In this document: in pieces, positions 9,005-32,360 of the stretch
Layout of the letters: every line of letters begins with the position of its first letter
Numbering within the stretch: the first letter of the stretch is position 1
Source: Escherichia coli
GTDB lineage: Bacteria; Pseudomonadota; Gammaproteobacteria; Enterobacterales; Enterobacteriaceae
Assembly (NCBI RefSeq): GCF_003334305.1
Contig: NZ_QOWS01000012.1
DNA length: 64,000 nt
Direction: 5' to 3' (one strand)
Program-made: the position numbers and the translations under genes
The notes under the pieces: generated by a model
What the model was told of the DNA's origin: nothing
The model's database searches: none
Seen by the model: the letters and a program-made list of their open reading frames with translations, nothing else

Positions 9005-11518
9005 TTAATTTTGGCTAATACACGGTAAAATAACCGTTACGGTGGTTAAGTTGCTGCTATTGGGTGGTTGAATAAAACAGGATTTATCACCCCAGCGTAA
9101 AGTAAGTTTGCTGTCATCCTGAATGCCGTTGAGGTATACAAAGCCGCCATCAGCAACCAGTCCTAATTCTTTATGGCTGGTTTTATCTTTTACGCTAATC
9201 CCCAGTGGTGGGTGACTACCATCTGCCAGGCGAATAACCCCCATGATTTGATAGCCCTTGCGGGTATCAAGTTTGGCGTAGCCAATAGCACCTTCGGTTA
9301 AGGTGGTGGTGATAACCGAGTTTTCGATATCCACATTTTCTGGAAGATTTCGGGTATCAACGCTTAATGATGTTGTTATGTAACTGCTGACTGATGGAAT
9401 AACTCCGATGCCATACCGATTAGTTACCGCGCGTTTATTGTTCAACGGAATATCTTCTGCACCATCTGCGTCGATCATAAAACGCGAGTCAGCACTACCA
9501 CTATAGTCATGGAAAGCGGCTCCGTGACGAGTCGCCGTGAATGAACCATTCCAACTGGCATTCAGAGAATAATAACTGTCTCGCTGTGATGTCCCGGAGA
9601 GATAGAGACGACCGTTCTCGGTATTATGCTGATAACTGGCGCGTAGTGACGCTTTCATATCTTTGAATTCATCATTGTCGCCTGAAGCAGAAACGCTCCA
9701 GGAATTATTTCGATCGGAAGAGTCATACCACGAAGCAGTATGCGAAATCTTGTTATCCTGATTTCGTTGCATACCATAGCTCAATGTTCTACTGGTTCCC
9801 CAGGGAATCGAAATATTTAGGTACAGTTGATCCTGGTTGTCTTCTTCCCAGTTTATTCGGCTAAATGTTAGAGAAGTGGAGACGTTTTTTAATGGCCCGA
9901 TATCAAAATCGCGGCTAAGTGATAATGAATAATTCACATTACTGCTGGCGTCCCAGTAAGTATTACGAGCCAAACTTACGTATGTATTTAACCTTAATGA
10001 TTCAAGATACTGGTTAAACGTGACAATATAACTCTCTTTTTCATTCTGATAATTCGTGTAATGGTTAGTGTCATTGATATATTCATTCATTGTCACAAAG
10101 TTTTTATCAGAGAAACGGTAACCAGCGAAAGTGAGCTGGCTACCGGTAGATTCAAAACGTTTTGAATAGTTAGCGCGGTAGCTATAACCCGTTTCTTTAT
10201 CCTGATTATGCAACTGAGCATCAGATCGTGTGACATCAAAAGATAATGAACCCAATGAGTTAAGGTTAAAGCCAACGCCGGCAGCCAGAGATTGATAATC
10301 ACGGTTTGTTAAAACTGAACCACCATACAGGGATACATTGTTCAGCCAACCCCATGAGAATTCACCAGTCCAGAAGAAGGGTTGTTGTAAGGAATCACCA
10401 CCAACGCTGGTCGGTTTACCCATAGCAGTGGTGTAGCGAATCTGCCCTTTACGCGTCAGATAAGGAATACTATTAGATGCAACTTGCCATTGCGTGACTT
10501 GCCCGTCCTCTTCTTCAACCTTGACGTCCAGTTGCCCCTGTAATGTATTGAATAAATTAGTAATAGCAAATGGGCCAGGAGGAACATTTTCTTGATAAAT
10601 AATACGGTTGTTCTGTGAGACAGTGACCTTTGCATTCGTTTGTGCAACACCCGTGATTTGCGGTGCGTAACCACGTAGATCAGGCGGCAACATATTCTCA
10701 TCGCTTTTCAACGAAACGCCAGAAAAATGGAAAGAGTCGAAAATAGAGGATTCAGTATCGTATTGACCTATAGTTAGTTTTGCATTAATTGCTGGGATTG
10801 GGCGAAACAAATAAATACGCGGAAAATCCAGGTTGTTCGCCTGGCTTTTGCCATTGTTAAATGATTGATCGTACTGGTAATCAGTACGCAGGCGCCAGGC
10901 CCCAAGATTAACCCCAGCCTGCCCATAGGAACTTATATTTTGTGAATTATCGCCCTGATGTGGTGCATAATGAGAGGCATATAAATTGTAGTCAAGAAAT
11001 GCCCCAGCAATACCATGATCCCAAAGTTCAGGAGGCGTCCAGTTTGCATCTTTGTATTTTAACCATGCCTGAGGTGCAGATATGGATAATTGCATTTTCC
11101 CTTTATCGAGATAAGTTGTAATTTGTTTTTCTTTTTCGATAGGGTAACAACCATCGATCAGGTTTTGCTGAGCCACTTCAATAATCTCATCAGTAAAGCC
11201 TAATAATGTTAATTGCTCTGGAGTCAGACAAACTGCAGTTTGGTTATCAATTAATACCCATTGCAGGTCCAGATGGATTGGCGTCCTTTTATTATTAATA
11301 AGAGCGTTTAATGAGTATTTACCTACGGGTAATTGGCCATCAGTTTCAAATTGGGAAAGGTTAACGTTTTCACGATCTTCGGCTTCGATTAAATCTTTGT
11401 TGAATTCAACGGCATAAGCTGACGCACAACCAATGATGAGAACGGATAATGAACAATAAATATTTTTAATCAATTCGCTTATTGTGGTTAATTTTAATTT
11501 TTTATACATCTGTTCCAC
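9005..11518 (-). CDS. yqiG: Outer membrane fimbrial usher, uninterrupted
   Basis: 837 aa continuous ORF of the FimD/PapC usher family. It sits between the major subunit and chaperone genes. Confidence 0.9.
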   Translation of the reverse strand: MEQMYKKLKLTTISELIKNIYCSLSVLIIGCASAYAVEFNKDLIEAEDRENVNLSQFETDGQLPVGKYSLNALINNKRTPIHLDLQWVLIDNQTAVCLTPEQLTLLGFTDEIIEVAQQNLIDGCYPIEKEKQITTYLDKGKMQLSISAPQAWLKYKDANWTPPELWDHGIAGAFLDYNLYASHYAPHQGDNSQNISSYGQAGVNLGAWRLRTDYQYDQSFNNGKSQANNLDFPRIYLFRPIPAINAKLTIGQYDTESSIFDSFHFSGVSLKSDENMLPPDLRGYAPQITGVAQTNAKVTVSQNNRIIYQENVPPGPFAITNLFNTLQGQLDVKVEEEDGQVTQWQVASNSIPYLTRKGQIRYTTAMGKPTSVGGDSLQQPFFWTGEFSWGWLNNVSLYGGSVLTNRDYQSLAAGVGFNLNSLGSLSFDVTRSDAQLHNQDKETGYSYRANYSKRFESTGSQLTFAGYRFSDKNFVTMNEYINDTNHYTNYQNEKESYIVTFNQYLESLRLNTYVSLARNTYWDASSNVNYSLSLSRDFDIGPLKNVSTSLTFSRINWEEDNQDQLYLNISIPWGTSRTLSYGMQRNQDNKISHTASWYDSSDRNNSWSVSASGDNDEFKDMKASLRASYQHNTENGRLYLSGTSQRDSYYSLNASWNGSFTATRHGAAFHDYSGSADSRFMIDADGAEDIPLNNKRAVTNRYGIGVIPSVSSYITTSLSVDTRNLPENVDIENSVITTTLTEGAIGYAKLDTRKGYQIMGVIRLADGSHPPLGISVKDKTSHKELGLVADGGFVYLNGIQDDSKLTLRWGDKSCFIQPPNSSNLTTVTVILPCISQN

Positions 11519-19621: not shown

Positions 19622-20251
19622 ATGCTTAAGCCAGACAACCTGCCCGTTACATTTGGCAAAAACGATGTAGAAATTATTGCACGAGAAACACTTTATCGCG
19701 GCTTTTTTTCATTAGATCTTTATAGATTTCGTCATCGTTTATTCAACGGGCAAATGAGTCATGAGGTACGGAGGGAAATTTTTGAGCGCGGTCACGCCGC
19801 AGTCTTGCTACCCTTTGACCCAGTGCGTGATGAAGTTGTGCTGATTGAGCAGATTCGGATTGCCGCATACGACACCAGTGAAACCCCCTGGCTACTGGAG
19901 ATGGTTGCCGGGATGATAGAAGAGGGTGAAAGTGTGGAAGATGTTGCCCGTCGCGAAGCGATTGAAGAGGCGGGACTGATAGTCAAACGGACCAAACCGG
20001 TGTTAAGTTTCCTGGCAAGCCCGGGGGGCACCAGTGAGCGTTCGTCAATTATGGTGGGCGAAGTGGACGCCACGACCGCAAGCGGTATTCATGGTCTGGC
20101 TGATGAAAACGAAGATATTCGCGTTCATGTGGTAAGCCGGGAACAGGCATACCAGTGGGTAGAAGAGGGGAAAATCGACAACGCAGCGTCGGTCATCGCT
20201 TTGCAATGGCTGCAGCTGCATCATCAAGCGTTAAAAAATGAGTGGGCATAA
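19622..20251 (+). CDS. nudF: ADP-ribose pyrophosphatase (Nudix)
   Basis: 209 aa with a Nudix box ([22 protein letters not shown]). Confidence 0.93.
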
Positions 20252-24028: not shown

Positions 24029-24072
24029 TAATCTTTACCCGGCAAACATGTGTTTTGCCGGGTTGTCGCTGA

Positions 24073-24942
24073 TTATTTTATTGGGCACAGTTTGTTACGA
24101 TCTGGAAATAGTGTTGCCAGCGAACCAGCCAGAGTTTTCCAGTCCGTAGCCATTTTTTCTGCTTGTGCAGTTGTTATTACTGCACCTTGTTGTTTAATAA
24201 GCTCATCCTCCACTCTGGTATAGTGAATAATGGTAAAATCCGTAGAGGACCATTTATCCTTAGAGAACATCTTCGTCATCGCATGAATGTTTGCTTGCCC
24301 GTCATCGATAAAAACAATCGCGTCATATTTGTTCCCCATTTTATCCAGCATATAATCGAGAATTACGCCTTTATCTTGCCCGGAAGAAAAAAATACCCCC
24401 TGGCTGTACAGCCATGACCGTTTGAGTTTCCCTTTTTCAAAGGGTGGCAAAGTATCCTCTTTCTTCCTGAGTGCGGAAGACGAAAAATCAATGCCGTTTC
24501 GCTTTAATTCCCGCAATGTCGGAAAGAGAGTATCCGGTGCACGGGATGTCAGAGCAAAAGCGGTATGCTTTTGTTGCCACTGTTTTAACATTGTCGGTAA
24601 CTGTGGCTCGGTAAGCTGCATAGGGCTAAGTTCGTAAAGCATACTGATTGTATTTTCATACAGGCAGGGAACTTTTTGCGAGTCATCCGGCTTTAAGGGC
24701 AATTTATCGGTTTACCATTGATACCAGATATCACCGCCAATGCGTGTGCCACTCGTTAATAACGTATTATCAATGTCAAAAACCAATAATATCTTATCGG
24801 ATGGATAGAGAGTTTCCTTTTCGGTGATAATTTTACTGACCGCACTATATTCGCCAGTAACTATATTTTTTACCTGTGCGTAAGATAAAGCTGGCAGAGC
24901 AGAGAGTATCATCCAGAGAATGATTTTAAATTTATTATTCAT
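24073..24942 (-). pseudogene. Secreted HAD-like phosphatase (DxDxT motif), interrupted by an in-frame TAA
   Basis: The 76-aa ORF (24712-24942) has a signal peptide and the FDIDNTLL motif. It ends at TAA (24712-24714), and the same frame continues directly into the 209-aa ORF (..YQW*TDKLPLKPDD..). Confidence 0.7.
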
Positions 24943-24955
24943 TTTTTATTCCAGA

Positions 24956-25690
24956 TTAGAAAGTATAAGTCAGACCCCAGCGCCAGCGGATTTGGCGATT
25001 ACTTGATGTTTTATCCACACCTTTATAATCCGCAATACTCATATAGGGTATCCACGATCCCATTTTGTACCCTACTTTAAATGATGCGGTATAGTTTTTA
25101 TGGCCATCATTCCAGGTTAAATAACCATTATTGTAATAGACCAGGTTTAACTGATATTGGAAGTTGGTTTTTTGTGGTCGATAGTCGATCCACACATCGT
25201 AACGGCGGTTATTACGATCATCGTTGCCATAACCTTTGGATTTATCGGTAGCTTTATCCATGTCATAACGAAAACGACCCGAAACTTTCCATTCTTTGCT
25301 GAAATCATAACCCGCAGAAAGACCATATTCGTAAGTTGACCAATATTGCGTGGTATCAAGCCAGAACATGGGTTCTAACCAGAATTTTTTGTCATCCAGC
25401 GGCTTAAAGCGGTAAACAACAGATAATCCTGTTCCGTTATTGCCAAATTGTGAGGGGTCCCACTTATCTTTATCACCTTCATCGGTGTTATAGCGTAATT
25501 CTCCCATCAAACCGATACCATTACTAAAAAATGTACCAAATTCAACGCGGTCCGCGTGGGTGCGAGTATCATCAAGATACTCATGACGATAATCAATAAA
25601 TCCATGCGGCTGTTCTGCACAGACTAGTGTAGGTGACAGGCAGGATAACATTGTTATTCCTGCAAGTGATATTTTAAGATAAGAATTCAT
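24956..25690 (-). CDS. KdgM/NanC-family outer membrane oligosaccharide porin
   Basis: 244 aa with a signal peptide. It shows an alternating beta-strand pattern, the GFIDYRHEY start typical of the KdgM family, and a C-terminal ...WGLTYTF ending in aromatic Phe. Confidence 0.7.
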   Translation of the reverse strand: MNSYLKISLAGITMLSCLSPTLVCAEQPHGFIDYRHEYLDDTRTHADRVEFGTFFSNGIGLMGELRYNTDEGDKDKWDPSQFGNNGTGLSVVYRFKPLDDKKFWLEPMFWLDTTQYWSTYEYGLSAGYDFSKEWKVSGRFRYDMDKATDKSKGYGNDDRNNRRYDVWIDYRPQKTNFQYQLNLVYYNNGYLTWNDGHKNYTASFKVGYKMGSWIPYMSIADYKGVDKTSSNRQIRWRWGLTYTF

Positions 25691-25785
25691 AATATTCCCT
25701 TTCAGAATAAAATATATTTTTGGTGATCGAATACACCATCTGATGATTCCAGGTATTAGAATGTTTTTTTATCTATAGTTTGACT

Positions 25786-26910
25786 TTAAATTTTAAGTTT
25801 GTTTTCCTTATCAATGAATAGATAAAATTTCGTCTGTTGATGGGGCTGGAAATTATTATCAGATACAAATATTAACGATGTATGCCCATCAATCAGAGGA
25901 CCGAAGGTTACCCCTTCAATACAATCCGCAGAGGAAGTGTAATCAGCAAAATCAATTAATAATTTTTTACTGACGGGTTGTAACGTGGATTTATTGGACC
26001 AATCTTGCAGACTGTCAATATCCTTGATATCGCTGGCAGCAGTTAAATCGACCATATAAACTCTGACAGAGTAATCCCAGTCATTGAACCCAGCACTGAC
26101 GTTTCTGCCGGAACGTTCGATGACCAACAATTGGTGATCATTCAGCGCCAGGACCTCGGATACGCCATTATCATTAATACCGAACTTACTCACTTGCGGA
26201 ACAGGATCAGTAATATAGAGATATTCATGCAATTGCTTTGAAGGTCGACCGTCTGCATCTATAGAAAATTGCAGTAAGCGTGATGTACCTGAATTTATTG
26301 GACTTGCAATAGGCCCATCCTGTTTAAGGCTGCTTTCAACGGCGATAAAAAGTGATTTTCCATCTGGTGTAACTGTCAGGCCCTCCCAGGCGTTGCCGCT
26401 GCGAATACCATTGCTGCTCTCTTTGTCAGAACTAATATTAAATCGAGCAGGAAATAAAGACGTAAAATCTTTCTCCATTACGCCATCGAGAGTGCTCAGA
26501 CGCAGTGGAGCACCTAACTCCGAACTCCATAGTAATGACTTACCATTGTGTGTCAGGGCCAGACCTTCGGCATCCACCGTATTGGTCACGAAAGGCTGCT
26601 GTTTTGCATCAAGCAGTGGACGCTGGTTGAGAAAATTCACTTGCTCAATGCCCCTGGATGATACCTGTATTTTTAGTGTATAAAGACTGGCATCTCCTTC
26701 TTTATTATTGTTTCTGCTATCGTTAATAGCATAGAAAATATTTTTTTTTGCATCAAATGTGATGGCTGATAGCCCCGCGATTGTAACATTGTTCTGTTTT
26801 TCTCCCGTCCGGAAGTTGAACTCACCAGCATAATGAAGAAAACTGTTTGCCTGCGCTGTTGTGCATAACAGCGGTAATGCCAGAAAAATAGCGGCATGTC
26901 TTATTTTCAT
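25786..26910 (-). CDS. Secreted phytase-like / esterase-like beta-propeller protein
   Basis: 374 aa with a signal peptide (..TAQA/NS). It has repeated GLS/EGL.. blades and a D/N-rich sequence resembling the phytase-like esterase domain family. The assignment rests on recollection of that family only. Confidence 0.5.
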   Translation of the reverse strand: MKIRHAAIFLALPLLCTTAQANSFLHYAGEFNFRTGEKQNNVTIAGLSAITFDAKKNIFYAINDSRNNNKEGDASLYTLKIQVSSRGIEQVNFLNQRPLLDAKQQPFVTNTVDAEGLALTHNGKSLLWSSELGAPLRLSTLDGVMEKDFTSLFPARFNISSDKESSNGIRSGNAWEGLTVTPDGKSLFIAVESSLKQDGPIASPINSGTSRLLQFSIDADGRPSKQLHEYLYITDPVPQVSKFGINDNGVSEVLALNDHQLLVIERSGRNVSAGFNDWDYSVRVYMVDLTAASDIKDIDSLQDWSNKSTLQPVSKKLLIDFADYTSSADCIEGVTFGPLIDGHTSLIFVSDNNFQPHQQTKFYLFIDKENKLKI

Positions 26911-26939
26911 GATATTTACCTTTGTGTATGTATCTGATT

Positions 26940-27854
26940 TTAGTCGTGTTGTGAAAGAAAAAGATTAACTTCCGATGGTGTCGCCAGATGACCTCTGGCA
27001 CCTAATGCAGTAATATTTATTGCTGCAGTGGCAGAAGCAAATTTTAGTGCTTCAATTAAGGGCATGTTTTTTATTAAGCTATAAACAAATGCACCATTAA
27101 AAGTATCTCCAGCGCCAGTGGTATCAATAATGGGAATTGTATAGCTACCTATTTTTACTTGCTCATTGCCTTTGACTGCAATTACTCCCCTAACATCCAG
27201 CGTAACCACGACAGCCTCAAGTTGATACTCGTCTTGTATATCATGCAGAAGTGTAAAATCTGGCTCTGCTGCATAGCCACGAATAAAACCGTCATAATTA
27301 AATATCGCAATATCAGCAAGGTGTAAAATTCTGGCAAGGTGTTCAGGTGTTGCAATGATATGAGGCTCAATATCAACGACAACTTTTGTCATCTGGCTAC
27401 GGGAATATTCGGCCAGCATACGAAATTTCTCGATATCTGCTGGCATCGTATAATAATAACGGCTTTGCGCAATTGCCTGCAGGGCTTTTTCTTTATCCCA
27501 CTCATGATCACTACCAGGCGAGTAAACCAACGTTTTTTCACCTAATTCATCAATAAAGATAATCGCGGTATTGGCAATCAATTCCGGAATTACCTGAACG
27601 AAATCACAATTTACATGATATTTTTTAAATCCATCAAGAATGATCGAGGCTGAATGATCATTGCCCACACATGAAACAGATACCACATTGAGACCCAGTT
27701 GTCCCATCGCACAGGCACTGTTGGCGACTGTGCCGCCAGCTTGTTCACCCAGACGTGTCCCGACCACTTTACCGCCACGAGTGGGGAGTGACGGGATAGA
27801 TAAAAAAATATCTATATTTCCACTGCCTAAAGCGGCGACATCAAATTTCTTCAT
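26940..27854 (-). CDS. PfkB-family carbohydrate kinase
   Basis: 304 aa from MKKFDVAALGSGNIDIF.. preceded by the RBS gggaga. The C-terminus carries the DTTGAGDTFNGAF signature. The upstream extension to 27908 would overlap the SIS gene and is rejected. Confidence 0.85.
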   Translation of the reverse strand: MKKFDVAALGSGNIDIFLSIPSLPTRGGKVVGTRLGEQAGGTVANSACAMGQLGLNVVSVSCVGNDHSASIILDGFKKYHVNCDFVQVIPELIANTAIIFIDELGEKTLVYSPGSDHEWDKEKALQAIAQSRYYYTMPADIEKFRMLAEYSRSQMTKVVVDIEPHIIATPEHLARILHLADIAIFNYDGFIRGYAAEPDFTLLHDIQDEYQLEAVVVTLDVRGVIAVKGNEQVKIGSYTIPIIDTTGAGDTFNGAFVYSLIKNMPLIEALKFASATAAINITALGARGHLATPSEVNLFLSQHD

Positions 27855-27858
27855 AGTC

Positions 27859-28857
27859 TTATTTCTCCCTATGGCTAACGCGTTGCCCGCCTGCGTCGAC
27901 ATAATCACAACTTAAATGCCAGCACATTTCATATAACCACTGCATGACCAGAAATAAATTGTTGGACTCACTGGCATCAGGTATAAAACTGATTAATTCT
28001 GCTGTCGCTCCCTGTTCAACAATTGCTTTTTGGGTTGCAATGTAAAATGGGTACTCGCGGGATGTAGCTGGCAGTAAAAAATAATGCTGACCGACACCAG
28101 CCTGATGTAAGCGTAATGAATGATAAAATTCTTCCAGTGGAAAGGCTGTCGCACGAATCTGTGGGCCGCAAGAAAGTAAATTGCTCCCCGATATTGCTAG
28201 TCCCCAACTTAAGCCACTCCCCAGAAACGTTATCTCTTTTTGTTGGTAAAAATGGCGCTTCTTTTGCTGCCAGTGCTGATTAATCTGGCTAAATTTCCCT
28301 TCTAAATCCTCTTCAATTTGCAGTGGTGTTAAGCCTGGACATAAGTTTTGCGCTAAGCGCAGGAGGGTATAAAGTGTGACGCTACTACTTTGCGTTGGAA
28401 TACCCTGCTTATTCGCCCATGTATAGAGCATGTTTTCTGTTATTGCGCAAAATGGTGTTCCAGGGCAATTCGTCACACCCAGCACTTGCGCGTTTGAGCA
28501 TACTGCGTGGCTAAGGGCGTCAACGGTCAGTGATGGTCTGCCACTTGCGCTGAGAATAATGATCAACGTTTCTTTCTGATAACGGGTTAAATCAGTCTGA
28601 AGAAAATCCCACGTTTGCAATGCGGAACAAAACAGATGTGTGTATTTCCCCAGCCAGGCGGCGGCACATAGTGCCACCGTCCAGGAGTCGCCCGATCCCA
28701 CTATACAGACGCGTTCAACAGCACGTTTATCGAGCTGAACAGATGAAAAACATTCACCCCAGATAGCTGCCAAATGGCGTAGCGCTGCCGCCGTTGCATT
28801 TATTTCCTCACGAGTTTGCGCTAATGGCATAACAGGAGCACGGGCTGGCATGTTCAT
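27859..28857 (-). CDS. Double SIS-domain sugar-phosphate isomerase/deglycase-like protein
   Basis: 332 aa with two SIS-like segments (CIVGSGDSWTVA and TFLGSGLSWGLA). Its ATG overlaps the ARH gene stop by 1 nt (TAATG). Confidence 0.75.
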   Translation of the reverse strand: MNMPARAPVMPLAQTREEINATAAALRHLAAIWGECFSSVQLDKRAVERVCIVGSGDSWTVALCAAAWLGKYTHLFCSALQTWDFLQTDLTRYQKETLIIILSASGRPSLTVDALSHAVCSNAQVLGVTNCPGTPFCAITENMLYTWANKQGIPTQSSSVTLYTLLRLAQNLCPGLTPLQIEEDLEGKFSQINQHWQQKKRHFYQQKEITFLGSGLSWGLAISGSNLLSCGPQIRATAFPLEEFYHSLRLHQAGVGQHYFLLPATSREYPFYIATQKAIVEQGATAELISFIPDASESNNLFLVMQWLYEMCWHLSCDYVDAGGQRVSHREK

Positions 28858-29933
28858 TATTTCTCCTGTGCCTGTACTGCAAGCAATGTCAGACCCGATG
28901 CGATCGCTTCAACATCGAAATCTTTATTATTTACGGCGCGGAAAAAGGCATATTTATCTTCAGGGAGCGCATCAAAACCGCGCCATGCCCCTGCAATTGC
29001 GCCTGCCATCGTAGCGATGCTATCGGTGTCATTGCCAATATTGGCGCAGGCATGGATGGTTTCCCAGGGTTCTCCTTTGCAGTACAGCAATAGACCGATT
29101 GCCGCAGGAATGGATTCATGGGCGGCAACAGAGTTACCAACCAAACCTTCCATTTCTCGCAGACAAGACTCCAGATCATTGGCACGTCTGGCGATGTCCG
29201 CTGCAAGTTGGATGCGCATGGCGATAGATGGCCCTGCTACACATCGTGCATATTGTTTGGCCAGGCGTTCGCCGTAATTCGCTCCCCAGATTGCGGCATC
29301 CAGTAATGATGTGAGCGAGGCTTCTGGTAACATAGCCTGCGATGTCGCTGCAGCGATGGCGCAAGCGCTGGCAATCGCAATATTGGTGTCATGTGAAGGT
29401 AGGCAAGTTATTAACGCCAGGCGACACGCTTTTTCTTTCTTGCCAGGCCAGATCAATCCTGCCGGGGCTACACGCATTCCTGCGCCATTCGTGGTGCCGA
29501 CATTGGGGGCCTGACGAGAAGATGTTCCAATACGCCCAATGGTGTTTGTTGGTCTACCTTCTTTTAGTGCCTTGACGATTTGTTCTGTTGTGGGGCCTTT
29601 ATAATTTGCGTAGGGCTGCATATCGGCCCAACGCAGAAGACAAGCTAACCAGTCATTATTGGTGAAGTTATCAAATCCAGCCTCAATTAACCCTTCTGAA
29701 AACACATACATTTGGCTGGAATCGTCGGTGATAAGTCCTGCAACACCATTTAATGAGCCAGCAAAGGTATCGGCAGGAGGAGAAACAAAGGCATTTAAAA
29801 AACCTCCCCATTGAGTTTTTATTTCATCAATGCTGTAGAGTTCAGTCGCTGCGCCTAATGCATCGCCCATACCTGCGCAGGCTAAAGAACCTAATATTTT
29901 GTTATAAATTACGGCTTGTTCTATTTTGTTCAC
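28857..29933 (-). CDS. ADP-ribosylglycohydrolase (ARH/DraG) family hydrolase
   Basis: 358 aa. It has the N-terminal GMGDALGAATE motif, an internal DDSSQ, and the C-terminal GNDTDSIATMAGAIAGAW metal-site motif typical of the family. Confidence 0.8.
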   Translation of the reverse strand: MNKIEQAVIYNKILGSLACAGMGDALGAATELYSIDEIKTQWGGFLNAFVSPPADTFAGSLNGVAGLITDDSSQMYVFSEGLIEAGFDNFTNNDWLACLLRWADMQPYANYKGPTTEQIVKALKEGRPTNTIGRIGTSSRQAPNVGTTNGAGMRVAPAGLIWPGKKEKACRLALITCLPSHDTNIAIASACAIAAATSQAMLPEASLTSLLDAAIWGANYGERLAKQYARCVAGPSIAMRIQLAADIARRANDLESCLREMEGLVGNSVAAHESIPAAIGLLLYCKGEPWETIHACANIGNDTDSIATMAGAIAGAWRGFDALPEDKYAFFRAVNNKDFDVEAIASGLTLLAVQAQEK

Positions 29934-29946
29934 AATATTCTCTCTG

Positions 29947-30699
29947 TTACACGCTAAAACTGTCTTTTGTAATTCGTGCTTTGTAGGAGTACCGACTTGC
30001 GGGATAAACCATCTCTACATACTCCATTGGTTTACGTTCCACGGATAACGTGACGCGGGTACAACTTAATACGACGTCATCGGCAGTCAGTTCCAGTAAT
30101 TGACGCTCAAGGGGCGAGGGAAGCCGGGCAGAGATAATCTCCGTTGCTTCTAAAGGTTTAATAGCGAGTTTTTCTTCCAGTAAAATATAGAGCGAACCCG
30201 TCGCCAGCAGCTCTTCCAGAGTTATTTCTTGTCCGTCATTTAACGCAAGCCATGATGTCTGAATACCCAGCGGCGTACTTCCCATATAGCGAATGCGTTT
30301 TATACAGAAAACGGTATGGACATGGATATCAAGTTCGAGATTTTTTCTGATAATATCACTGAGAGGAATATAACCTATTTCAAGAATATTCTGTGCCGGT
30401 ACGCCACCACGAGCCTTAATGTCATCAGTAAAACTATGTAATAAATGATTTTCCCGACTGCGAGCCGGTAATGTAAATGTTCCTTGCCCGTGGACACTAT
30501 GCAGGTATCCGCGTTGTTTCAAACTTTCTATTGCTTTCCGAATTGTTGTTCTGCTGCTTAAAAAATGTTCAGCCAGTTCTCTTTCTGTTGGTATAGCTTT
30601 GCCTTCTTTCCATTCACCGTTATCAATTTTTTTCTTTATTTCATCAAAAATTTCACGATGCTTTAGCTGACCTTTACTGGCTTTATAAATTCTTATCAT
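29947..30699 (-). CDS. GntR-family transcriptional regulator, HutC subfamily (wHTH plus UTRA effector domain)
   Basis: 250 aa. The N-terminus carries the PTERELAEHF..SRTTIRKAIESLKQRGYL..HGQGTF HTH, and the C-terminal ~150 aa look UTRA-like. It lies 13 nt upstream of the ARH gene. Confidence 0.85.
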   Translation of the reverse strand: MIRIYKASKGQLKHREIFDEIKKKIDNGEWKEGKAIPTERELAEHFLSSRTTIRKAIESLKQRGYLHSVHGQGTFTLPARSRENHLLHSFTDDIKARGGVPAQNILEIGYIPLSDIIRKNLELDIHVHTVFCIKRIRYMGSTPLGIQTSWLALNDGQEITLEELLATGSLYILLEEKLAIKPLEATEIISARLPSPLERQLLELTADDVVLSCTRVTLSVERKPMEYVEMVYPASRYSYKARITKDSFSV

Positions 30700-30718
30700 G
30701 ACAAAGCCTCATTTCAAG

Positions 30719-30730
30719 TGGTTGATACCA
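30719..30730. promoter_or_regulatory. Candidate HutC-type operator, TGGTTGATACCA
   Basis: Inverted repeat TGGT-N4-ACCA, located 20 nt upstream of the regulator ATG (30699) in the divergent intergenic region. Confidence 0.4.
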
Positions 30731-30881
30731 ACTTTACATTCTTTTATTTTTATTGCGCAGTATGCTTATTTGTTATCTGTGACATAAAACAGGAAAAACC
30801 ACATTTATTAATAAATATCATGCGGTTAAGTGAAATTGGTTTTTATGTGATGCTGCTCAATATTAACTCAGTGGTTTGTTG

Positions 30882-30893
30882 TGGTATCTACCA
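30882..30893. promoter_or_regulatory. Candidate HutC-type operator, TGGTATCTACCA
   Basis: Perfect inverted repeat TGGTA-TC-TACCA, about 90 nt upstream of the transporter ATG. It resembles the DasR/NagR-type TGGT.TA.ACCA operator cores of HutC regulators. Confidence 0.45.
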
Positions 30894-30985
30894 ATGCATT
30901 TATTCTCAATCGTAAAGTTATGTGCTGAATGAGTTCCGATACATTTGTTTTTAATATAATTTCATGTGATTAATGAGTGCTGTGT

Positions 30986-32317
30986 ATGAAACTGACAATA
31001 AATGAAAAGATAGGTTTTGGTGCCGGTGATATGGCCATTGCGATAGTAATGATGTCTTTAGCCATGATCATCACTTATTTTTACACGGATGTATTTGGTC
31101 TGAAACCCGTCGACTTAGGTATTCTGTTATTTTCTGTACGTATTCTTGATGCTGTGATTGATCCAGTTGTGGGAACAATGACAGACATAACGAATACACG
31201 TTGGGGAAAATATCGGCCATGGTTGCTTTTTATGTCAATACCGTTTGGGATAAGCATTTGGTTGATGTTCACCACACCTGATACCGATTATTCAGTTAAG
31301 CTTTTATGGGCCTGGGCTACCTATGTGTTACTTACCTTGACCTATACGTTAATCGCTATTCCTTATGTTTCATTAATCAGCGTTATCACGGATGATCCAC
31401 AAGAGAGATTGAGCGCCAATGGTTATCGTTTTGTTATGACAAAAATTGCCATGTTCGCCGTAACAATTATTGTTCCTTTATCTGCAATGTATCTTGGGAA
31501 GAATAACGTACAACTGGGTTATCAAATAGCAATGGGGACAATGGGTATTCTGGCAACGTGTTTATGCCTGTATTGTTTTTTTAGCGTGAGAGAGCGCATC
31601 TACCATCCAAAACCCAGTCTCGGTATGGCCGCGCAGTTTCGGTTACTGATCAAAAATGATCAATGGCTCATTTTGGGCGCTGTAATTGCGATCATTATGT
31701 TTGGCGGGATTATTCGTAACTCTGTCGCTGCATATTATGCAAAATATTACCTGAGTGGTGGGGATGCTTTAATTTCACCGTTTTTAACTTCAGGCGTGAT
31801 CGCCTCAGTTCTGGCTATGATCGCTTGCACCTGGCTTACTCGTCTCTATGACAAAATAAAAATATTTCGTTATACCCAATTACTGGCGTTCGTGGTGGGT
31901 GGTGCGATGTATTTCGTGCAACCAAATTCTATAGTGCTAGCTTTTACATTTTATATTGTGGTGACTTTCCTGACGGATATCCAGCTTCCCATTTATTGGG
32001 CATCCATTGCTGAGTCCGTGGATTACGGTGAAATGAAAACGGGGCAACGTGTTTCTGGCCTGGCATTTGGCGGGATTCTCTTTTTCCAAAAGTTCGGTAT
32101 GGGGCTGGCAGGGGGCTTTATCGGAATCGCTTTAGCCTATCTGGATTATCAACCAGGCGTAGAACAAACACCACAGGCGCTGTGGGGGATCTGCCTGTTA
32201 ATGACGATCATTCCCGCGATACTTAACCTGCTTACCGGACTCATCATGAGATTTTATCTGATTAATAATGAATATTACGAACAGATAAAAGCACGGTTAC
32301 AAACGGCGGAAGAGTGA
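30986..32317 (+). CDS. GPH-family (glycoside-pentoside-hexuronide:cation) symporter
   Basis: 443 aa from MKLTINEKIGFGAGDMA with about 12 TM segments. It carries the RWGKYRPWLL loop signature of MelB/YicJ-type carriers. The GTG at 30977 is an alternative start. Confidence 0.85.
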   Translation: MKLTINEKIGFGAGDMAIAIVMMSLAMIITYFYTDVFGLKPVDLGILLFSVRILDAVIDPVVGTMTDITNTRWGKYRPWLLFMSIPFGISIWLMFTTPDTDYSVKLLWAWATYVLLTLTYTLIAIPYVSLISVITDDPQERLSANGYRFVMTKIAMFAVTIIVPLSAMYLGKNNVQLGYQIAMGTMGILATCLCLYCFFSVRERIYHPKPSLGMAAQFRLLIKNDQWLILGAVIAIIMFGGIIRNSVAAYYAKYYLSGGDALISPFLTSGVIASVLAMIACTWLTRLYDKIKIFRYTQLLAFVVGGAMYFVQPNSIVLAFTFYIVVTFLTDIQLPIYWASIAESVDYGEMKTGQRVSGLAFGGILFFQKFGMGLAGGFIGIALAYLDYQPGVEQTPQALWGICLLMTIIPAILNLLTGLIMRFYLINNEYYEQIKARLQTAEE

Positions 32318-32325
32318 AAATAAAT

Positions 32326-32352
32326 GGCCGGCAAGCAGCACCGGCCTCTTTT
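32326..32352. terminator. Bidirectional terminator between the symporter gene and ygiN
   Basis: Stem ggccgg / ccggcc with a 9-nt loop, then tctttt. Confidence 0.65.
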
Positions 32353-32360
32353 CAGAAATA

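What the first reader, a model, noticed from the sequence alone, without database searches (positions are those of the whole stretch)
24073..26910. Envelope module: secreted phytase-like propeller, KdgM porin and secreted HAD phosphatase downstream of the cytoplasmic genes
Seen in sequence: three consecutive minus-strand genes each encode an N-terminal signal peptide.
- A 374-aa propeller-like protein.
- A 244-aa beta-barrel with the KdgM-family start (IDYRHEY) and a terminal Phe.
- A DxDxT (FDIDNTLL) HAD-like protein.

Established knowledge: KdgM/NanC porins admit anionic oligosaccharides, and HAD DxDxT enzymes are mostly phosphatases.

Inference: the locus may first take up and dephosphorylate or de-esterify an anionic, phosphorylated extracellular glycoconjugate in the periplasm. 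The GPH symporter would then import the product for the ARH/SIS/kinase steps. Pairing a porin with periplasmic processing and a dedicated cytoplasmic ARH pathway is unusual.
Basis: partly seen in the sequence, partly recalled or inferred. Interest (0 to 1): 0.6.

Follow-up and report, generated by a model that had tools for sequence, protein, structure and literature searches.

The report
Envelope front end of riboside-scavenging island
Three secreted-protein genes (a small outer-membrane pore, a propeller-shaped probable phosphoesterase and a phosphatase that is broken in this strain) form the uptake side of an uncharacterised 8-gene E. coli accessory island. In other bacteria the island keeps company with nucleoside and nucleotide genes, so it probably scavenges a phosphorylated ribose compound.

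Summary
At 24073-26910 (minus strand) there are three consecutive genes with Sec signal peptides:
- a PF13449 "phytase-like" protein, modelled as a five-bladed propeller;
- a KdgM-family porin;
- a DUF2608/HAD protein with all four HAD phosphatase motifs, whose fold is closest to class C (e(P4)-type) acid phosphatases.

In this strain the HAD gene is a pseudogene. Invariant Gln77 (CAA) is TAA at 24712-24714. This allele was found in 1 of 408 carrier genomes.

The three genes belong to an 8.3-kb low-GC island between parE and ygiN, present in about 7.5% of complete E. coli genomes.

The propeller travels with the ADP-ribosylglycohydrolase (ARH)/ribokinase-like operon in Escherichia, Klebsiella, Kosakonia, Enterobacter, Providencia, Vibrio and Burkholderiales. 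The other parts are swapped for analogues:
- KdgM for Tsx or a TonB-dependent receptor;
- DUF2608 for a UshA-like 5'-nucleotidase;
- the GPH symporter for a Bmp-type nucleoside ABC importer.

Adenosine deaminase or inosine-uridine nucleoside hydrolase genes are often added.

The substrate is most likely a nucleotide-like riboside, possibly derived from ADP-ribose or NAD, and not phytate or an acidic oligosaccharide. No published function was found.

The parts
24029..32360 (.). Accessory island between the parE stop (24028) and the ygiN stop (32361); 8 genes, no mobility genes
   Evidence: GC is 0.40-0.48 against about 0.53 in the flanks. It is present at >=80% coverage in 406 of 5426 complete E. 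coli genomes, always chromosomal. It is listed as an 8,372-bp, 8-gene strain-variable region in UPEC (PMC6854850). No flanking direct repeats were found.
25786..26910 (-). Secreted PF13449 'phytase-like' protein (374 aa): five-bladed beta-propeller, probable metal-dependent periplasmic phosphoesterase
24956..25690 (-). KdgM-family outer-membrane porin (244 aa)
   Evidence: PF06178 at 105.9 bits over the full length. KdgM structure 4fqe at E 1.4e-11 over residues 32-244. Signal peptide and C-terminal Phe. Retained next to the propeller in Klebsiella, Kosakonia, Enterobacter, Providencia and Vibrio.
24073..24942 (-). DUF2608 (HAD-fold, class C acid-phosphatase-like) gene, inactivated here by a nonsense codon
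24712..24714 (-). TAA stop replacing the family-invariant Gln77 codon (CAA)
   Evidence: Q77 is invariant. The allele is private to strain A7: 1 genome against 407.
26940..27854 (-). PfkB-family sugar kinase (304 aa), ribokinase-like
   Evidence: PF00294 E 7e-43. The best NCBIfam match is ribokinase at E 1.8e-41 over the full length, below the equivalog cut-off. It accompanies ARH in nearly all loci.
27859..28857 (-). SIS-domain protein (332 aa), distantly like the GlmS isomerase domain
   Evidence: PF01380 E 5e-9. GlmS E 6e-11. PDB 3tbf and 3fkj at E 2e-6. It is present in the Enterobacterales/Vibrio versions. In Burkholderiales versions it is absent and an inosine-uridine nucleoside hydrolase is present.
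28857..29933 (-). ADP-ribosylglycohydrolase-family enzyme (358 aa), the conserved core of the cluster
   Evidence: PF03747 E 1e-49. Closest solved structures are MJ1187 (E 3e-21) and human ARH3 (E 3e-10); DraG is far weaker at 5e-3. Family-typical Asp/Thr/Glu motifs (G23-D24-A25-L26-G27...T30-E31, T69-D70-D71, N301-D302-T303-D304) are invariant in 38 orthologues. That they are the metal ligands rests on my own knowledge of ARH3.
29947..30699 (-). GntR/HutC-type regulator with UTRA effector domain (250 aa)
   Evidence: PF00392 plus PF07702. Present in all cluster versions.
30986..32317 (+). GPH-family (MFS_2) glycoside:cation symporter, divergently transcribed (RefSeq start 30986; longest ORF starts at 30977)
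   Evidence: PF13347 E 2e-97. TIGR00792 gph at 346 bits, above its cut-off. Replaced by a Bmp/ABC nucleoside-type importer in Vibrio and Burkholderiales.

Best explanation
The three genes are the outer-membrane and periplasmic front end of a horizontally acquired, GntR-controlled catabolic island. The island harvests an extracellular phosphorylated riboside, that is, a nucleotide-like compound.

Proposed steps:
1. The KdgM-family porin lets the anionic compound cross the outer membrane.
2. In the periplasm, the five-bladed PF13449 propeller (a probable Ca2+/metal phosphoesterase) and the DUF2608 HAD acid phosphatase remove phosphate or cleave phosphodiester or pyrophosphate bonds. DUF2608 is functionally equivalent to the UshA-like 5'-nucleotidase that replaces it in other genera.
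3. The neutral riboside enters through the GPH symporter.
4. The ARH-family hydrolase cleaves a ribosyl (C1'') bond.
5. The ribokinase-like PfkB phosphorylates the released sugar, and the SIS protein isomerises or deglycates the product.

What is shown: family memberships, folds, signal peptides, the pseudogene state, and conserved linkage with swapped analogous parts.

What is inferred: every catalytic step, the order of steps and the substrate. My preferred substrate class is ADP-ribose/NAD-derived nucleotides that carry an extra ribosyl bond.

In strain A7 the HAD step has been lost through a private nonsense mutation.
For: Family, fold and localisation:
- Pfam and PDB matches.
- Signal peptides on all three proteins and on their orthologues.
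- Propeller model.
- HAD motifs and a probable disulfide pair.
- HAD fold nearest to e(P4)-type class C acid phosphatases.

Linkage of the propeller to ARH-PfkB:
- Klebsiella, Kosakonia (16), Vibrio (22, 64), Providencia (23), Herbaspirillum (24), Enterobacter (52).
- All 8 Enterobacterales-type and 11 of 20 Burkholderiales-type metagenome loci.
- Linked propellers form two exclusive clades.

Modular replacement by analogues:
- DUF2608 and the 5'-nucleotidase are mutually exclusive across genera. They swap at one site within Vibrio mediterranei.
- KdgM is joined by Tsx in V. bivalvicida and Enterobacter, or replaced by a TonB receptor placed next to the propeller.
- The GPH symporter is replaced by a Bmp-ABC importer.

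Nucleoside flavour of the added genes:
- Adenosine deaminase.
- Inosine-uridine nucleoside hydrolase.
- The kinase is closest to ribokinase.
- The ARH is closer to ARH3 than to DraG.

Other:
- A cyanobacterial PF13449 member is induced by phosphate starvation, consistent with phosphoesterase chemistry.
Against: - No enzyme activity or substrate is known for PF13449, DUF2608 or this ARH subfamily. Literature searches found nothing functional.
- The propeller fold matches do not single out phosphoesterases. Glutaminyl cyclase and GH43 glycosidases score as well as the nucleotidase.
- GPH transporters usually carry glycosides, not nucleosides.
- The role of the SIS protein is unexplained.
- Nine of 20 distant ARH loci lack the propeller, so the cytoplasmic pathway can work without it.
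- The island shows decay: this stop codon, an internal stop in the transporter of STEC307, and an IS1 deletion in MB06173. This suggests weak selection in E. coli.
Confidence: 0.6

Rival explanations
1. Phosphate scavenging. The porin, propeller and HAD phosphatase mainly release inorganic phosphate from organic phosphoesters under phosphate limitation, and their position beside the ARH operon is secondary.
For: A PF13449 gene annotated as an 'atypical alkaline phosphatase' is strongly induced by P limitation in Nodularia. Solitary PF13449 genes are common in Rhizobium, cyanobacteria and Bacteroidota. DUF2608 resembles non-specific class C acid phosphatases.
Against: No Pho box with up to 3 mismatches occurs anywhere in the window. 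The propeller gene lies directly after the kinase gene, with a 29-nt gap, in the ARH-SIS-PfkB gene string in Escherichia, Klebsiella, Kosakonia and Providencia. A GntR/UTRA regulator accompanies every version. ARH-linked propellers form their own clades.
Confidence: 0.1
2. One reading: an anionic oligosaccharide, glycoconjugate or phytate is taken up through a KdgM/NanC-type pore and de-esterified.
For: KdgM membership is solid. The transporter is of the glycoside-pentoside-hexuronide family. The Pfam name says 'phytase-like'.
Against: No glycoside hydrolase, lyase, uronate or inositol gene appears among the called genes of the nine annotated cluster loci. All additions are nucleoside or nucleotide genes. 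The propeller has five blades and does not match beta-propeller phytases. In Vibrio and Burkholderiales the importer is of the Bmp nucleoside type.
Confidence: 0.07
3. ADP-ribosylation conflict module. The ARH reverses ADP-ribosylation by a neighbouring toxin (as Tri1 does for Tre1), and the envelope genes are bystanders.
For: Homologues of an ART-family protein lie next to the cluster in Kosakonia (PF01129, 26.7 bits), Klebsiella (TcC C-terminus), Enterobacter, Providencia and one metagenome locus.
Against: The E. coli island has no ART gene. The ARH is always in an operon with a sugar kinase, a transporter and a metabolite-sensing GntR regulator. The match to Tri1 is only local, E 5e-5. The ART genes sit in different positions and orientations.
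Confidence: 0.05
4. Chance neighbours: three unrelated secreted-protein genes that merely share an island with the ARH operon.
For: Each family also occurs without ARH elsewhere.
Against: Linkage persists through rearranged gene orders and across gamma- and beta-proteobacteria. It shows clade-exclusive association. Like-for-like replacement of parts occurs at the same positions.
Confidence: 0.03

Closest known systems
Haemophilus influenzae NAD/NMN uptake route (OmpP2 porin, NadN periplasmic NAD nucleotidase of the 5'-nucleotidase family, e(P4) class C HAD acid phosphatase, PnuC importer, NadR kinase). This comparison rests on my own knowledge of the system.
   Same: It has the same architecture: a porin, periplasmic 5'-nucleotidase-type and class C HAD phosphatases that strip phosphates from a nucleotide, import of the riboside, and a cytoplasmic kinase. 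DUF2608's nearest solved folds are class C acid phosphatases. A UshA/NadN-family gene replaces it in other genera.
   Different: The protein families differ: a KdgM porin, a PF13449 propeller with no counterpart, and a GPH or Bmp importer in place of PnuC. The cytoplasmic part here is catabolic (ARH, ribokinase-like kinase, SIS) rather than cofactor salvage. No activity has been tested.
E. coli K-12 yegTUV operon with its GntR-family repressor GgaR/YegW
   Same: It combines a nucleoside-type MFS transporter, an ADP-ribosylglycohydrolase-family protein and a PfkB kinase under a GntR-family regulator (PMC10819704).
   Different: yegTUV has no envelope module and no SIS gene, and its own function is unknown. 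Sequence relatedness to this island's ARH and PfkB was not measured here.
Bacteroides ribose-utilisation systems (rus PULs)
   Same: Ribokinases and a transporter are coupled to variable outer-membrane and hydrolase parts. These include ADP-ribosylglycohydrolases and nucleoside hydrolases and are proposed to free ribose from nucleosides, NAD and (poly)ADP-ribose (bioRxiv 10.1101/574913).
   Different: Those are SusC/D-based loci in Bacteroidota. This is a proteobacterial porin or TonB-receptor system with PF13449 and DUF2608 enzymes.
KdgM/KdgN oligogalacturonate porins of Dickeya and NanC of E. coli
   Same: The porin is a true family member.
   Different: The genomic context has no pectin or sialic-acid genes. 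NanC was not matched at E <= 1. Specificity is probably different.
Salmonella fra and E. coli frl Amadori-compound loci (periplasmic FraE, transporter, PfkB kinase, SIS deglycase, GntR regulator). This comparison rests on my own knowledge.
   Same: They combine a GntR/UTRA regulator, a PfkB kinase, a double-SIS-like protein and a transporter, with a periplasmic pre-processing enzyme in fra.
   Different: The kinase here is nearer to ribokinase than to fructoselysine kinase (E 1.8e-41 against 1.4e-11). An ARH is present, and SIS is dispensable in Burkholderiales versions.

Membership tests
KdgM porin family (PF06178) | Full-length match to the family profile above the curated threshold | tested here: met
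   105.9 bits against a cut-off of 22; profile positions 9-222 of 222.
KdgM porin family (PF06178) | Homology to a solved 12-stranded KdgM barrel over the whole mature chain | tested here: met
   4fqe at E 1.4e-11; query 32-244 aligned to chain 3-216. The barrel itself was not modelled here.
KdgM porin family (PF06178) | Signal peptide and C-terminal aromatic residue of outer-membrane barrels | tested here: met
   ...TLVCA|EQ at the N-terminus; the chain ends ...GLTYTF. Judged by eye; no predictor was available.
KdgM porin family (PF06178) | Association with oligogalacturonate (kdg) or sialic-acid (nan) utilisation genes | tested here: not met
   The neighbours are ARH, SIS, PfkB, GntR and GPH. 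In relatives they are nucleoside and nucleotide genes.
PF13449 'esterase-like activity of phytase' | Match to the family profile | tested here: met
   229 bits, E 1e-67, profile positions 3-284 of 284.
PF13449 'esterase-like activity of phytase' | Beta-propeller fold | tested here: met
Beta-propeller phytases (six-bladed, Bacillus type) | Structural or sequence similarity to a solved beta-propeller phytase | tested here: not met
Beta-propeller phytases (six-bladed, Bacillus type) | Phytate hydrolysis | not testable with these tools
   This needs an enzyme assay.
HAD-superfamily phosphatases | Four catalytic motifs, including DxDxT with Asp at position +2 | tested here: met
   D56-I-D58-N-T60, T132/S133, K191 and D213-D214 are invariant or nearly so in 49 homologues.
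HAD-superfamily phosphatases | Rossmann-like HAD fold | tested here: met
HAD-superfamily phosphatases | Intact reading frame in this window | tested here: not met
   TAA at codon 77, window 24712-24714.
Class C (e(P4)-type) acid phosphatases, PF03767 | Profile match to PF03767 | tested here: inconclusive
   The window protein matches only PF11019. Several homologues carry precomputed PF03767 hits; the one whose strength was shown (P0258) is marked faint. The best structural neighbours are class C enzymes at 13-14% identity.
ADP-ribosylglycohydrolase family (PF03747) | Profile match and conserved acidic motifs | tested here: met
   170 bits over the full length. D24, T30/E31, D70-D71 and D302/D304 are invariant in 38 orthologues. 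That these are the metal ligands rests on my own knowledge of ARH3.
ADP-ribosylglycohydrolase family (PF03747) | Hydrolysis of an ADP-ribosyl bond | not testable with these tools
   It falls below the equivalog cut-offs for DraG and Tri1. The substrate is unknown.

The most novel reading that the evidence does not exclude
The island and its relatives encode a dedicated bacterial route for feeding on ADP-ribose-derived nucleotides that contain a ribose-ribose or other alpha-ribosyl bond. Candidates are poly(ADP-ribose) fragments, phosphoribosyl-AMP, 2'/3'-cADPR or ADP-ribosylated amino acids.

Proposed steps:
1. Periplasmic phosphoesterases reduce the compound to ribosyl-adenosine or a similar riboside.
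2. The ARH3-like enzyme cleaves the extra ribosyl bond.
3. Adenosine deaminase and inosine-uridine nucleoside hydrolase finish off the nucleoside, and the ribokinase-like enzyme captures the ribose.

The repeated presence of ADP-ribosyltransferase toxin genes next to the cluster would then have a functional meaning.
Probability: 0.2. Interest if true: 0.8.

Novelty: new variant of a known kind. Interest (0 to 1): 0.5.

Why it matters
About 1 in 13 complete E. coli genomes, and many Klebsiella, Enterobacter, Kosakonia, Providencia, Vibrio and Burkholderiales genomes, carry this cluster. None of its key families has an assigned activity: PF13449, DUF2608 and this ARH subfamily.

The comparative pattern gives a short, testable list of substrates: NAD(P), ADP-ribose derivatives and unusual ribosides. 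It also provides two ready controls. One is strain A7, whose phosphatase gene is naturally knocked out. The other is the natural swap between DUF2608 and a 5'-nucleotidase within Vibrio mediterranei.

Working out the substrate would give first functions to two domains of unknown function. It would also give a metabolic role, as opposed to a signalling or toxin-reversal role, to bacterial ADP-ribosylglycohydrolases. The E. coli K-12 orphan operon yegTUV might be clarified at the same time.

Tried and rejected
- Literature. Searches for DUF2608, PF13449, ARH with SIS/GntR/phytase, ARH with nucleoside/PfkB, ARH with ribokinase/deaminase, and ARH with ABC transporter/KdgM gave no functional study. 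The 'YegU' search was swamped by an author name.
- A Pho-box scan of the whole window found no site.
- The promoter and terminator scan gave counts no higher than in shuffled sequence. Nothing usable came from it for operon boundaries.
- The repeat search found no island-flanking direct repeats. A 15-nt inverted match at the KdgM and GntR starts lies in coding sequence and is probably chance.
- Locus L017 (E. coli ECMA0423) first looked like a diverged second copy of all 8 genes. It is the same island in an error-ridden assembly: 95% identity with 366 gap openings. I discarded it.
- P0283 could not be located on a contig.
I reran it with P0241.
- I did not model the porin. Its barrel is inferred from homology to 4fqe.
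Full report
**What is there**

The window is E. coli chromosome: tolC-nudF-yqiB-cpdA-yqiA-parE on one side and ygiN-mdaB-ygiZ-qseCB on the other. It is 100% identical over the 8.6 kb queried to strain A7, from orangutan faeces.

Between the parE stop (24028) and the ygiN stop (32361) lies an 8.3-kb stretch with GC 0.40-0.48, against about 0.53 in the flanks. It carries eight genes and no mobility genes. It is present at >=80% coverage in 406 of 5426 complete E. coli genomes, always on the chromosome. A UPEC comparative paper lists it as an 8,372-bp, 8-gene variable region and assigns no function (PMC6854850).

**The three genes of the finding**

- 25786-26910 encodes a 374-aa PF13449 protein, E 1e-67.
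- 24956-25690 encodes a 244-aa KdgM-family porin. The Pfam match is 3e-30 over the full length. The match to the KdgM crystal structure 4fqe is 1.4e-11 over residues 32-244. It has the IDYRHEY start and a terminal Phe.
- 24073-24942 encodes a DUF2608 protein with FDIDNTLL.

Each has a positively charged N-terminus, a hydrophobic core and an AxA-type cleavage site. I judged this by eye because no predictor was available.

**A correction: the third gene is broken here**

An in-frame TAA at 24712-24714 cuts the DUF2608 gene after codon 76. RefSeq flags it as a pseudogene. In STEC307 and UPEC F11 the codon is CAA and the gene is an intact 289 codons. Gln77 is invariant in 49 homologues.

A 55-nt probe centred on the stop allele matches only strain A7. 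The CAA probe matches 407 genomes. The loss is therefore recent and private.

Other carriers show different damage. STEC307 has an internal stop in the transporter gene, and MB06173 has an IS1-associated deletion of most of the island.

**Folds**

No beta-propeller phytase appears, and no PDB sequence matches at all. Thirteen Asp/Glu/Asn positions plus R211, R266 and K315 are invariant. This fits a metal-dependent hydrolase but does not prove one. The one piece of functional evidence I found for the family is that a Nodularia member, annotated 'atypical alkaline phosphatase', is strongly induced by phosphate limitation (PMC9846622).

**Does the envelope module belong with the ARH operon?**

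Yes, for defined clades. The cluster versions found were:

| Organism (locus) | Gene content |
|---|---|
| Klebsiella oxytoca (L002) | GPH; ARH-SIS-PfkB-propeller; GntR; a 55-aa membrane peptide; adenosine deaminase; KdgM; DUF2608 |
| Kosakonia (L004/5) | deaminase; GPH; KdgM; GntR-ARH-SIS-PfkB-propeller; UshA-like 5'-nucleotidase |
| Providencia (L009) | same as Kosakonia |
| Enterobacter BIGb0383 (L014) | GPH-Tsx-propeller-KdgM-DUF2608 as one string, opposite GntR-ARH-SIS-PfkB |
| Vibrio bivalvicida, V. mediterranei (L008, L095) | 5'-nucleotidase-propeller-KdgM (plus Tsx in V. bivalvicida), opposite GntR-Bmp-ABC-ARH-SIS-PfkB |
| V. mediterranei, another strain (L094) | KdgM-propeller-DUF2608 at the same chromosomal site |
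| Herbaspirillum (L010) | TonB receptor; GntR; Bmp-ABC; ARH; PfkB; inosine-uridine nucleoside hydrolase; propeller |

DUF2608 and the 5'-nucleotidase never occurred together in the loci I examined, and they swap within one species. I therefore infer they do the same job.

In a metagenome scan seeded with the ARH:
- all 8 full-length Enterobacterales-type loci have the propeller, KdgM and one of the two phosphatases;
- of 20 full-length loci with about 50% identical ARH, 11 have the propeller, usually next to a TonB-dependent receptor, and 9 do not.

Conversely, about 75 PF13449 loci from Rhizobium, cyanobacteria and Bacteroidota have none of the island's genes within 10 kb. An Alteromonas DUF2608 sits by a TonB receptor without ARH.

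A neighbour-joining tree of 90 propellers puts the ARH-linked ones in two clades, Enterobacterales+Vibrio and Burkholderiales. These clades contain no solitary member except one gene at a contig end. The refutation criterion 'the three genes occur independently of the ARH operon' is therefore met at family level but not for this subfamily.

**What the pathway probably acts on**

Every gene that joins the cluster in some lineage points to nucleosides or nucleotides:
- the Tsx channel;
- Bmp-type binding protein and ABC importer;
- UshA-family 5'-nucleotidase;
- adenosine deaminase (cytoplasmic, with no signal peptide);
- inosine-uridine nucleoside hydrolase.

The kinase is closest to ribokinase (1.8e-41, below the equivalog cut-off). 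The ARH has family-typical acidic motifs conserved across 38 orthologues and is nearer to ARH3 and MJ1187 than to DraG. No glycoside hydrolase, lyase, uronate or inositol gene appears among the called genes of the annotated cluster loci.

My best reading is a scavenging system for an extracellular phosphorylated riboside:
1. a pore or receptor takes it across the outer membrane;
2. periplasmic phosphoesterases strip phosphate;
3. the riboside is imported;
4. the ARH cleaves a ribosyl bond;
5. the ribokinase-like enzyme phosphorylates the sugar.

This is the logic of Haemophilus NAD uptake (porin, NadN, e(P4), PnuC, NadR; my own knowledge) and of the Bacteroides rus loci, built from different and uncharacterised families. 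Only the anatomy and the linkage are shown. The chemistry is inferred.

The need for an ARH in addition to a nucleoside hydrolase or deaminase makes ADP-ribose/NAD-type compounds with a second ribosyl bond attractive. I give that specific idea about 0.2.

**Rivals**

- *Phosphate scavenging alone.* This is weakened by the absence of a Pho box and by co-transcription geometry with the catabolic genes.
- *A toxin-reversal role.* This is suggested by ADP-ribosyltransferase-like genes next to the cluster in four genera and one metagenome locus. The E. coli island has none, and the operon is plainly metabolic.
- *Chance neighbourhood.* This is excluded for practical purposes.

**Verdict**

The system is an unstudied variant of a known strategy. 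It is of moderate interest, and higher if the ADP-ribose idea proves correct.

Noticed in passing
window 24712-24714: The nonsense codon in the DUF2608 gene is private to strain A7 among 408 island-carrying complete genomes. The window strain is therefore a natural knockout of the periplasmic HAD phosphatase.
   Followed up: yes
L011 1646-2977 (STEC307); L013 4156-5945 (MB06173): Other E. coli lineages carry different lesions in the same island. STEC307 has an internal stop in the GPH transporter gene. MB06173 has an IS1 element with deletion of everything from the transporter to parE. The island seems to be decaying piecemeal.
   Followed up: partly
L004 12792-14093; L002 4352-5191; L014 2436-3479; L009 17050-18015; L110: Homologues of an ADP-ribosyltransferase-family protein lie directly beside the ARH cluster in Kosakonia, Klebsiella (as the C-terminus of a TcC/RHS toxin), Enterobacter, Providencia and one metagenome contig. 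The Kosakonia protein scores 26.7 bits on PF01129, above the cut-off. There is none in the E. coli island. This is either coincidence within flexible islands or a hint of an ADP-ribose link.
   Followed up: partly
L002 12241-12408; L004 3418-3582: A conserved 54-55-aa hydrophobic ORF (weak DUF1427 match) sits immediately upstream of the adenosine-deaminase-family gene in the Klebsiella and Kosakonia clusters. It is absent from the E. coli island.
   Followed up: no
L010, L048, L112-L176 compared with window 27859-28857: In Burkholderiales versions of the cluster the SIS gene is missing and an inosine-uridine nucleoside hydrolase is present. Some metagenome versions that lack the Bmp importer have both. 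The role of the SIS protein remains unexplained.
   Followed up: partly
window 8241-8998 (-): Between the fimbrial gene at 7175-8239 and the usher gene at 9005-11518, the expected single chaperone-sized gene is split into two overlapping ORFs of 128 and 124 aa. This is probably a frameshifted fimbrial chaperone (yqiH-like) in this strain.
   Followed up: no
window 19622-20251 (+): nudF (ADP-ribose diphosphatase) lies 3.8 kb from the island. It is a core gene present in genomes without the island, so the proximity to an ARH cluster looks coincidental.
   Followed up: no
P0043 (Klebsiella pneumoniae): A 442-aa protein call combines SIS and phytase-like Pfam domains. In Klebsiella oxytoca the PfkB gene lies between those two genes, so this is more likely a deletion or frameshift artefact than a real fusion.
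   Followed up: no
L017 (E. coli ECMA0423, CP178302.1): This 'complete genome' record carries the same region at 95% identity with 366 gap openings and almost no long ORFs. It is an error-rich assembly that mimics a diverged paralogous island in protein-level searches.
   Followed up: yes
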